64,000 nucleotides of DNA from Escherichia coli. Its GTDB lineage: Bacteria > Pseudomonadota > Gammaproteobacteria > Enterobacterales > Enterobacteriaceae. Below, one piece after another: positions 44,041-44,140 of this stretch. How positions within the stretch are numbered: position 1 is the first letter of the stretch; each line of letters begins with the position of its first letter. The translations under genes were made by a program, and so were the position numbers. The notes beneath the pieces are model-generated. The model did not search any database, was not told the DNA's origin, and saw nothing but the letters and a program-made list of their open reading frames with translations. The DNA is taken from assembly GCF_003334765.1 (NCBI RefSeq), contig NZ_QOWT01000001.1. One strand, given 5' to 3'.

Positions 44041-44059
44041 TATGCACTTTAAATGCATA
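44041..44059. promoter_or_regulatory. ARG-box-like palindrome upstream of astC
   Basis: TATGCA-N7-TGCATA inverted repeat, AT-rich centre; resembles the ArgR operator half-sites as I recall the consensus. Confidence 0.35.
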
Positions 44060-44123
44060 TGGTTTGGTTATAACTCCTTGATTTCCAGTTAGCCTCCGCC
44101 GTTTATGCACTTTTATCACTGGC

Positions 44124-44140
44124 TGGCACGAACCCTGCAA
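44124..44140 (+). promoter_or_regulatory. sigma54 (-24/-12) promoter for astCADBE
   Basis: TGGCACgaaccCTGCA matches GG-N10-GC spacing of the sigma54 consensus, about 75 nt upstream of astC ATG. Confidence 0.7.

What the first reader, a model, noticed from the sequence alone, without database searches (positions are those of the whole stretch)
44041..44140. astCADBE control region: sigma54 promoter with an upstream ARG-box-like palindrome
TGGCAC-N5-CTGCA (44124..44140) has the -24/-12 architecture of a sigma54 promoter. About 65 bp upstream, TATGCA-N7-TGCATA (44041..44059) is an AT-centred palindrome resembling an ArgR half-operator. Together they fit nitrogen-limitation plus arginine control of the arginine succinyltransferase pathway.
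Basis: partly seen in the sequence, partly recalled or inferred. Interest (0 to 1): 0.25.

Follow-up and report, generated by a model that had tools for sequence, protein, structure and literature searches.

The report
Known astC sigma-54 promoter region
This is the well-studied control region of the E. coli arginine-breakdown operon astCADBE: the sigma-54 promoter is real and published, and the upstream palindrome is most likely the middle of an arginine-regulator (ArgR) binding site, so the finding is correct but ordinary.

Summary
The window is E. coli. Bases 43779-44211 are the xthA/astC intergenic region, present in 5425 of 5426 complete genomes.

TGGCAC-N5-CTGCA (44124-44139) is the published astC sigma-54 promoter. 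A ChIP-seq peak centre lies 1 bp from the motif centre, and the site is listed as experimentally confirmed. It is kept in 80 of 80 enterobacterial orthologues.

The palindrome TATGCA-N7-TGCATA is not remarkable by chance alone: the window holds 306 perfect 6+6 inverted repeats. Its arms, its 7-bp spacer and its distance to the -24 element are nevertheless conserved in 80 of 80 loci.

It is 1 bp too long to be one 18-bp ARG box. With a matrix built from ten known ArgR operators, it is the best match in 64 kb to the junction of two ARG boxes (right half-box, 3 bp, left half-box; 18.1 bits).

Two conserved NtrC-like sites lie about 233 and 253 bp upstream of the predicted start. [quoted passage not shown]

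Verdict: already known. I could not read the primary footprinting papers.

The parts
43889..43905 (.). NtrC-like enhancer site 1 (TGCCCGCTTTTAGTGCG), centred about -253 from the predicted start
   Evidence: A YGCVCY-N5-RGBGCR pattern recurs at -235/-236 from TGGCA across genera. The window has A at 43900 where MG1655 has G, which costs one consensus match. A consensus scan alone is not significant.
43909..43925 (.). NtrC-like enhancer site 2 (TGCGTCAGAATGGCGCA), centred about -233
   Evidence: It has 3 mismatches to TGCACC-N5-GGTGCA. It is conserved at -215/-216 from TGGCA in many genera. NtrC binding to this spacer is reported by gSELEX and ChIP-seq.
43938..43975 (.). Conserved block AAATTTCG-N6-GATCACA-N2-TCCAGAATTATATTT: a perfect CRP right half-site with a poor left half, followed by an ARG-like CAGAAT element
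   Evidence: At least 80% conserved in 57 non-redundant sequences (raw rows). CRP is named among the operon's regulators. The assignment to CRP is my inference.
43979..43996 (.). Upstream ARG-like box (TCTGCATAACATTGCGTT)
   Evidence: 5.8 bits in E. coli and 8-11.5 bits in Citrobacter, Salmonella and Enterobacter at the same offset of -145/-146.
44029..44037 (.). Conserved ARG right half-box (GTATTCACT)
   Evidence: 4.7 bits in E. coli, median 9.5 bits in 80 orthologues. TATTCAC is present in 68 of 81 sequences.
44031..44048 (.). Best full-length ARG-box match in the intergenic region (ATTCACTTTATATGCACT); it overlaps the left arm of the palindrome
   Evidence: 9.8 bits, with only 9 positions at or above 8 bits in 64 kb. 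At least 6 bits in 85% of orthologues, median 9.6. It matches 13 of 16 consensus positions, which alone is not beyond chance.
44040..44060 (.). The inferred ArgR bend centre is at about 44050, which is -100.
   Evidence: The junction model scores 18.1 bits, rank 1 of 63,980 positions. In orthologues the median is 16.1 bits, rank 1 within its own locus in 66 of 80 and rank 3 or better in 80 of 80. The spacing is the same as in the known operators.
44071..44084 (-). IHF-core-like element (minus strand AAATCAAGGAGTTA = WATCAA-N4-TTR), centred about -73
   Evidence: The conserved bases (TAA....TTGAT.TT) are exactly the specified positions of the IHF core, while the N4 bases vary. The pattern occurs once in the window. 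No report of IHF at astC was found. Inference only.
44103..44111 (.). Conserved ARG right half-box (TTATGCACT) abutting the -24 element, 63 bp (3 x 21) downstream of the half-box at 44040
   Evidence: 9.8 bits in E. coli and median 9.3 bits in 80 orthologues. TTTATGCA.TTTT is at least 80% conserved. Its function has not been shown.
44124..44139 (+). Sigma-54 promoter of astCADBE: -24 TGGCAC and -12 CTGCA
   Evidence: Conserved in 80 of 80 orthologues. Sigma-54 ChIP-seq peak OS17 carries this exact motif. The Salmonella orthologue was found by ChIP-chip.
44142..44148 (+). Sigma-S/sigma-70-type extended -10-like element (CTACATT) immediately after the -12 element
   Evidence: ATCTACATT.ACAG is 90-99% conserved. 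RpoS is a listed regulator and astC is directly RpoS-transcribed according to the literature. The exact assignment is my inference. The simple sigma-70 scan did not call it.
44150..44150 (+). Predicted sigma-54 transcription start, 62 nt before the ATG
   Evidence: Bonocora et al. predict the start 19 bp downstream of the motif centre and give a distance of 62 to astC. It is a prediction, not a mapped 5' end.
44212..50239 (+). astC-astA-astD-astB-astE coding region
   Evidence: ORFs of 406, 344, 511 (longest possible start), 447 and 322 aa overlap head to tail. RefSeq annotates astC and xthA under the match, and astA and astC in MG1655.
42960..43778 (-). xthA (exonuclease III), divergent neighbour
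   Evidence: The annotated MG1655 start corresponds to window position 43766.

Best explanation
The stretch is the regulatory region of the E. coli arginine succinyltransferase operon astCADBE.

RNA polymerase carrying sigma-54 sits in a closed complex on TGGCAC-N5-CTGCA (44124-44139). It can start transcription, predicted at about 44150, only when phosphorylated NtrC pushes it into an open complex. NtrC binds two enhancer sites about 233 and 253 bp upstream (43889-43925).

The DNA between enhancer and promoter carries a conserved cluster of ArgR half-boxes. Arginine-loaded ArgR hexamer binds there and bends the DNA by about 70-90 degrees, centred between the boxes at about -100. That bend helps the enhancer-bound NtrC reach the promoter. 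This is the arginine 'superinduction' seen on top of nitrogen-limitation control. A conserved IHF-like core at about -73 may add to the bend.

Shown, by the literature read here and the sequence: the sigma-54 site and its occupancy, NtrC binding to the spacer, and ArgR, RpoS and CRP as regulators of the operon.

Inferred: that ArgR contacts exactly this palindrome in this register, that bending is the mechanism, and the IHF, CRP and sigma-S element assignments.
For: Locus identity.

Sigma-54:
- The motif is unique in the window.
- It is conserved in 80 of 80 loci with the GG and GC invariant and the spacer variable.
- The ChIP-seq peak centre is 1 bp from the motif centre, and EcoCyc lists the site as 'confirmed'.
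- Salmonella ChIP-chip finds the orthologous site.
- gSELEX detects the spacer with RpoN holoenzyme alone and with NtrC.

NtrC: ChIP-seq is reported with 'direct binding' cited. Two conserved NtrC-like sites lie at fixed offsets.

ArgR:
- A matrix trained on ten K-12 operators reproduces the known two-box operators.
- The junction score at the palindrome is rank 1 in 64 kb, and rank 3 or better in all 80 orthologous loci.
- The arms are conserved, the spacer length is fixed and the distance to the -24 element is fixed.
- ArgR bends DNA 70-90 degrees, centred between the two boxes.
Against: The primary papers with primer extension and DNase I footprints were not available. These are Kiupakis and Reitzer 2002 and Lu and Abdelal 1999. 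The match between the palindrome and the footprinted ArgR sites is therefore not verified.

The site is not a canonical operator. The outer half-boxes are poor (median 0.5 and -12.5 bits), and the two-box pair score is only 4.6 bits.

A second register, offset by 11 bp (44020-44037 plus 44041-44058), is also partly supported. It explains the conserved ATTCAC better.

The consensus-with-mismatches scan is not beyond chance.

The reported NtrC ChIP-seq interval maps onto the promoter (window about 44117-44197) rather than onto the upstream NtrC-like sites (and my coordinate conversion).

In E. coli ArgR is only accessory, and expression data show NtrC dominance.
Confidence: 0.82

Rival explanations
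1. The palindrome is itself a single 18-bp ARG box (a half-operator).
For: Its arms TATGCA and TGCATA resemble ARG half-boxes. TGCAT replaces TGAAT in several real operators such as argG, argR and argD.
Against: The arms are 7 bp apart, not 6, so the element is 19 bp long. As an 18-mer it scores 5.5 bits (44042-44059) or less. In most species the right arm is TGAATA in the orientation of a left half-box. That orientation fits a junction, not the right half of the same box.
Confidence: 0.08
2. ArgR binds in the other register. Two boxes at 44020-44037 and 44041-44058, phased at 21 bp with upstream ARG-like boxes near 43979, would make the left arm of the palindrome a left half-box.
For: ATTCACTTTATATGCAC is almost identical to the argF inter-box junction ATTCACTTTATATGTGT. 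The box at offset -104 reaches 13-14 bits in Klebsiella and Raoultella, and -146 to -104 is 2 x 21 bp. This register explains why ATTCAC is conserved although it mismatches the left half of the 44031 box.
Against: The junction score is 8.8 bits (rank 14) against 18.1 bits (rank 1) for the other register. The box at 44020 scores 0.4 bits in E. coli. The conserved TGAAT at 44054-44058 is not explained. The two registers may both be used, so they are not mutually exclusive.
Confidence: 0.2
3. The palindrome binds another protein, for example a low-affinity NtrC 'governor' site, Lrp or CRP, and ArgR acts elsewhere in the spacer.
For: TGCAC, an NtrC half-site, lies in the left arm and again at 44106-44110. 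Lrp ChIP-seq lists astC as a direct Lrp-activated target.
Against: The C that completes TGCAC is not conserved (about 37% at 44047). The spacing is TGCAC-N5-ATGCA, whereas NtrC needs N7 between these pentamers. There is no CRP-like TGTGA-N6-TCACA here. ARG half-box scores of about 9 bits occur at a background rate of about 0.05% per position, yet four are conserved within 100 bp.
Confidence: 0.06
4. The palindrome is a chance inverted repeat in AT-rich spacer DNA with no function of its own.
For: The window holds 306 perfect 6+6 inverted repeats. The perfect form is limited to Escherichia.
Against: Arms, spacer length and distance to the -24 element are fixed in 80 of 80 loci spanning many genera, while the flanking spacer sequence diverges.
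Confidence: 0.02

Closest known systems
E. coli astCADBE control region as described by Kiupakis and Reitzer 2002 and listed in RegulonDB/EcoCyc (RpoN, RpoS, NtrC, ArgR; CpxR also listed)
   Same: It is the same locus. The sequence differs from MG1655 by one base in 480. The sigma-54 motif is identical to the published one.
   Different: Nothing of substance differs. The A/G difference at 43900 lies in NtrC-like site 1. I could not compare my half-box map with the published footprints.
Salmonella Typhimurium ast operon (Lu and Abdelal 1999; sigma-54 ChIP-chip in PMC3844500)
   Same: It has an orthologous sigma-54 site, TGGCACGAATGCTGCAAT. S. enterica L044 has the same block TATTCACTTTCCATGCA-N7-TGAATA at the same offset.
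   Different: According to a review, ArgR is required for arginine induction in Salmonella but is only accessory in E. coli. The right arm is TGAATA, so there is no perfect palindrome.
glnHp2, an NtrC/sigma-54 promoter assisted by IHF bending
   Same: It is a weak sigma-54 promoter with a distant NtrC enhancer and an architectural protein site in between. astCp and glnHp are described together as weak promoters bound by ArgR or IHF.
   Different: Here the architectural protein is a ligand-responsive regulator, ArgR-arginine, so bending carries a metabolic signal. A conserved IHF-like core is also present.
Canonical ArgR repressor operators (argF, argI, argECBH, carAB P2, argA, argG)
   Same: The half-box sequences are the same, as is the ATKCA-N7-TGNAT inter-box junction.
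   Different: Canonical operators have two full 18-bp palindromes overlapping the promoter and they repress. Here only the inner halves are strong (plus extra half-boxes), the site lies about 100 bp upstream, and ArgR activates.
Bacillus subtilis AhrC at the catabolic roc promoters (sigma-54-type, activated)
   Same: An ArgR-family protein acts positively at an arginine-catabolic operon that uses a sigma-54-type promoter. The title of reference 33 of PMC4381063 mentions novel operator positioning at catabolic sites. The rest is from my own knowledge.
   Different: The organism, the enhancer-binding protein (RocR) and the operator layout all differ. This was not examined here.

Membership tests
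Sigma-54 (RpoN)-dependent promoter | -24 GG and -12 GC elements with fixed spacing (TGGCAC-N5-TTGCW) | tested here: met
   TGGCACGAACCCTGCA at 44124-44139, the only match in the window. The one departure from consensus is C for T before GCA.
Sigma-54 (RpoN)-dependent promoter | Correct orientation and distance upstream of a gene | tested here: met
   It is on the + strand, 88 bp before the astC ATG, giving a predicted 62-nt leader.
Sigma-54 (RpoN)-dependent promoter | Occupied by sigma-54 holoenzyme | tested here: met
Sigma-54 (RpoN)-dependent promoter | Upstream binding sites for an enhancer-binding protein | tested here: met
   Two NtrC-like sites lie at conserved offsets. NtrC binding to the spacer is reported. 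The consensus match alone is not significant.
Sigma-54 (RpoN)-dependent promoter | Transcript 5' end about 12 nt after the GC, dependent on rpoN and ntrC | not testable with these tools
   Primer extension is reported in Kiupakis and Reitzer 2002, which is not held. Only a predicted start is available.
Sigma-54 (RpoN)-dependent promoter | Conservation of the two elements in orthologous regions | tested here: met
   Conserved in 80 of 80 loci.
ArgR operator (pair of ARG boxes) | An 18-bp imperfect palindrome wnTGAATwwwwATTCAnw | tested here: not met
   This applies to the palindrome itself: it is 19 bp long, with arms 7 bp apart, and scores 5.5 bits. The overlapping 18-mer 44031-44048 does match (9.8 bits, 13 of 16 positions).
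ArgR operator (pair of ARG boxes) | Two boxes separated by 2-3 bp (39 bp in all) | tested here: inconclusive
   The definition comes from PMC4381063. The inner halves are excellent, with a junction score of 18.1 bits at rank 1. The outer halves are poor, and the pair score is 4.6 bits.
ArgR operator (pair of ARG boxes) | Conservation of the half-boxes and their spacing | tested here: met
ArgR operator (pair of ARG boxes) | Arginine-dependent binding of ArgR at these bases | not testable with these tools
   Secondary sources say ArgR binds and regulates astCp.
IHF binding site | Core WATCAA-N4-TTR with the specified bases conserved | tested here: met
   44071-44084 on the minus strand; the conserved columns coincide with the specified core positions.
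IHF binding site | IHF binding or an ihf phenotype | not tested
   No report was found in the papers searched.

The most novel reading that the evidence does not exclude
ArgR may not use a canonical two-box operator here. Instead it may use a conserved set of single half-boxes on one face of the helix, at 44029, 44040, 44052 and, 63 bp further on, 44103, right against the -24 element. One hexamer would then wrap about 85-90 bp and place DNA-binding domains next to the sigma-54 closed complex. The 'residual' contacts that ChIP-exo described as non-specific would be sequence-specific here. A conserved IHF-like core would sit inside the wrap. If the published footprints do not already show this, it would be a distinct activating architecture for ArgR.
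Probability: 0.15. Interest if true: 0.35.

Novelty: already known. Interest (0 to 1): 0.1.

Why it matters
It matters little as a discovery. The ast promoter is a textbook example of a sigma-54 promoter whose enhancer-promoter contact is tuned by a metabolite-responsive DNA-bending protein.

The useful outcome is a clean re-annotation. It gives the exact promoter, the two NtrC-like sites, the register in which the palindrome fits ArgR recognition, and a fixed 83-bp geometry conserved across Enterobacteriaceae. It also yields three small testable leads:
- a half-box abutting the -24 element;
- an IHF-like core;
- a strain difference in NtrC-like site 1.

Tried and rejected
- Primary papers. 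I tried to read Kiupakis and Reitzer 2002, Lu and Abdelal 1999 and Makarova 2001 by PMC id, DOI and PubMed id. None is held. The cap on different papers was then reached.
- Full-text search for the operator sequence itself: no paper found.
- Supplements of the ArgR ChIP-exo paper: none held.
- ARG-box consensus with up to 3 mismatches: 13 hits against 10.6 expected, so it is not informative.
- NtrC consensus with up to 3 mismatches: 30 hits against 31 expected, so it is not informative without conservation.
- De novo soft expectation-maximisation motif search on ten arg promoters: it collapsed to a generic AT-rich motif and was discarded. I replaced it with seeded, paired-site refinement, which reproduced the known operators.
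- A canonical two-box ArgR operator in the ast spacer: none found; the best pair scores 6.0 bits.
- NtrC, CRP and Nac readings of the palindrome: rejected on spacing and on lack of conservation of the discriminating bases.
- Sigma-70 consensus scan of the spacer: no more hits than in shuffles.
- Rfam scan of 40000-52000: no hits.

Full report
**Identity of the locus.**
A 601-base query around the finding matches 5425 of 5426 complete E. coli genomes. Several matches are 100% identical, and the annotated features under the match are xthA and astC. In MG1655 the same arrangement is annotated as astA, astC and the divergent xthA. The window differs from MG1655 by a single base in the 480 compared: A instead of G at 43900. 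Downstream of 44212 lie five head-to-tail ORFs of the sizes expected for astC, astA, astD, astB and astE. The finding therefore sits in the 433-bp xthA/astC intergenic region, 43779-44211.

**The observation.**
Both motifs are present.
The degenerate pattern occurs once in 64 kb. Shuffles give 0.19 matches on average, and 18 of 100 give at least one.
- TATGCA-N7-TGCATA occupies 44041-44059, 64 bp upstream of the promoter motif.
- A perfect 6+6 inverted repeat is not rare. The window has 306 with spacers of 0-12 bp and 27 with a 7-bp spacer. The palindrome needs other support.

**The sigma-54 promoter is real and already published.**
- I fetched 80 enterobacterial astC loci, from Escherichia, Citrobacter, Salmonella, Enterobacter, Klebsiella, Raoultella, Kosakonia, Buttiauxella, Cedecea and others.
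- TGGCAY-N6-TGCA is present in all 80, at -87 to -92 from the ATG. The GG and GC are invariant and the bases between them vary.
- Bonocora et al. (PMC4591121) list sigma-54 ChIP-seq peak OS17 with the motif CTGGCACGAACCCTGCA for astC. The peak centre is 1 bp from the motif centre, and EcoCyc flags the site as experimentally confirmed.
- Their predicted start, 19 bp downstream of the motif centre and 62 nt before the gene, is window position 44150.
- The Salmonella orthologue, TGGCACGAATGCTGCAAT, was found by ChIP-chip (PMC3844500).
- Genomic SELEX detects the astC/xthA spacer with RpoN holoenzyme alone, with NtrC, and with both (PMC8743547).
- NtrC ChIP-seq lists astCADBE with 'direct binding' cited (PMC4066584).

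**The enhancer.**
Anchoring every orthologue on TGGCA reveals two NtrC-like sites (YGCVCY-N5-RGBGCR) at -235/-236 and -215/-216 in many genera. In the window these are 43889-43905 and 43909-43925, about -253 and -233 from the predicted start. A consensus scan alone would not single them out, since it gives 30 hits against 31 expected. The A at 43900 removes one consensus match from site 1 compared with MG1655.

**The palindrome: conservation.**
- An ungapped alignment anchored on TGGCA and a MAFFT alignment of 57 non-redundant sequences show a conserved block, TATTCACTTTwTATGCA-N7-TGMATA.
- The arms are 90-99% conserved and the seven spacer bases are not.
- The spacer length is 7 in all 80 sequences scored.
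- The offset from TGGCA is -83 in 78 and -82 in 2.
- The left arm is TATGCA in 71. The right arm is TGAATA in 63 and TGCATA in 11.
- The perfect palindrome is thus an Escherichia variant of an older element, ATKCA-N7-TGMAT.
- No insertions or deletions have been tolerated between it and the promoter.

**The palindrome: is it an ARG box?**
I built a position weight matrix from ten K-12 ArgR-controlled promoters: argA, argECBH, argD, argF, argG, argI, argR, carA, artJ and artP (loci L082-L090). A first unseeded search collapsed to an AT-rich motif. A seeded, paired-site refinement returned the familiar two-box operators and showed that C is common at box position 5, so TGCAT is a normal half-box.

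Scanning the window gave these results:
- The best full box in the ast spacer is 44031-44048 (ATTCACTTTATATGCACT) at 9.8 bits. Only 9 positions in 64 kb reach 8 bits.
- The palindrome taken as an 18-mer scores 5.5 bits.
- There is no canonical box pair.
- A single ARG box would need arms 6 bp apart, and this element has 7.

Seven base pairs is exactly the distance between the right half of one box and the left half of the next when the boxes are 3 bp apart. Examples are ATTCA-CTTTATA-TGTGT in argF and ATGCA-GTATTTA-TGAAT in argECBH. A junction model of right half-box, 3 bp and left half-box scores 18.1 bits at 44040-44060, rank 1 of 63,980 positions. In the orthologues the median junction score is 16.1 bits. 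It is the best in its own 4-kb locus in 66 of 80 and among the top three in all 80.

The outer half-boxes are poor, with medians of 0.5 and -12.5 bits. Two further half-boxes are conserved: one at 44029-44037 and one at 44103-44111. The second lies 63 bp (3 x 21) downstream and abuts the -24 element. Half-box scores of 9 bits or more occur at about 0.05% of background positions.

A second register offset by 11 bp (44020-44037 plus 44041-44058) is also partly supported. It scores up to 14 bits in Klebsiella and Raoultella, and its junction is nearly identical to that of argF. It scores lower in E. coli. I cannot decide between the registers from sequence, and both may be used.

**What the literature says about ArgR here.**
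I could not read the two primary papers.
- astCp is a weak sigma-54 promoter 'naturally bound by' ArgR, in the way glnHp2 is bound by IHF (bioRxiv 086108).
[quoted passage not shown] - RegulonDB-derived tables list RpoN, RpoS, ArgR and NtrC, and mention a CpxR site (PMC13401006).
- A review notes that ArgR is required in Salmonella but not in E. coli.
- ArgR hexamers bind two 18-bp palindromes joined by 2-3 bp and bend DNA by 70-90 degrees, centred between them. In vivo they protect about 93 bp (PMC4381063).

**Mechanism.**
Putting these together gives the following model.
1. Sigma-54 holoenzyme waits on 44124-44139.
2. NtrC-P bound near -233 and -253 must loop to it.
4. The fixed 83-bp distance fits a requirement for helical phase.

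The sigma-54, NtrC and ArgR roles are published. The exact ArgR register, the bending role and the additional elements are my inferences.

**Other conserved elements in the spacer.**
- An IHF-core-like WATCAA-N4-TTR lies on the minus strand at 44071-44084. Its conserved columns are exactly the specified core bases, and the pattern occurs once in the window. I found no report of IHF at astC.
- The block AAATTTCG-N6-GATCACA-N2-TCCAGAATTATATTT (43938-43975) has a perfect CRP right half-site.
- ATCTACATT.ACAG, directly after the -12 element, looks like a sigma-S-type extended -10 element. This fits the reported RpoS dependence, although the simple sigma-70 scan did not call it.
- Rfam gives nothing in 40000-52000.

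**Verdict.**
The only correction is anatomical: the palindrome is not one ARG box but the inner junction of a two-box ArgR site, and the NtrC enhancer that the promoter depends on lies about 190 bp further upstream of the palindrome. Interest is low.

Noticed in passing
window 4317-4355: This is the only canonical two-box ARG operator in the 64-kb window: TCTGAATATTTTTGCACT taa ATATGATGAATAATCACT, 16.9 bits. It lies at the 3' end of cdgI (yeaI), about 165-200 bp upstream of dgcJ (yeaJ). It may be an ArgR target linking arginine to c-di-GMP signalling. I did not check whether it is already listed.
   Followed up: partly
window 43900: The window has A where MG1655 has G, inside NtrC-like site 1 (TGCCCGCTTTTaGTGCG against ...GGTGCG). 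This removes one match to the NtrC consensus. The allele frequency among E. coli strains was not examined.
   Followed up: no
window 44071-44084 (minus strand): There is a conserved IHF-core-like element, AAATCAAGGAGTTA, between the ArgR half-boxes and the sigma-54 promoter. Only the consensus-specified bases are conserved across 57 sequences. No literature on IHF at astC was found.
   Followed up: partly
window 44103-44111: A conserved ARG-type half-box, TTATGCACT (9.8 bits), lies directly upstream of the -24 element. It is in 21-bp phase (63 bp) with the half-box in the palindrome. It is unexplained and may be a promoter-proximal ArgR contact.
   Followed up: partly
window 43926-43940: GTAAT-ttcca-GTAAA resembles the CpxR direct repeat GTAAA-N5-GTAAA (consensus from my own knowledge). 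A paper states that astCADBE has a CpxR site. Only the second repeat and the following AAATTTCG are well conserved.
   Followed up: no
window 44021-44036: TCGCAAACGTATTCAC resembles the PurR box ACGCAAACGTTTTCTT in 12 of 16 positions (consensus from my own knowledge). GCAAAC is kept only in Escherichia and Citrobacter, so this is probably chance.
   Followed up: no
window 44150-44211: The 62-nt astC leader is strongly conserved across genera (TTAACAT...AAC.TTTTATTTACCG..GAGGTCGCTATG). No Rfam family matches it. The reason for the conservation beyond the ribosome-binding site is unknown.
   Followed up: no
window 44117-44197 (converted from the published interval 1830021-1830101): The published NtrC ChIP-seq interval for astCADBE maps onto the sigma-54 promoter and leader, not onto the NtrC-like sites about 200 bp upstream (coordinate conversion). 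This could reflect cross-linking through the loop, limited resolution, or a different genome coordinate version.
   Followed up: no
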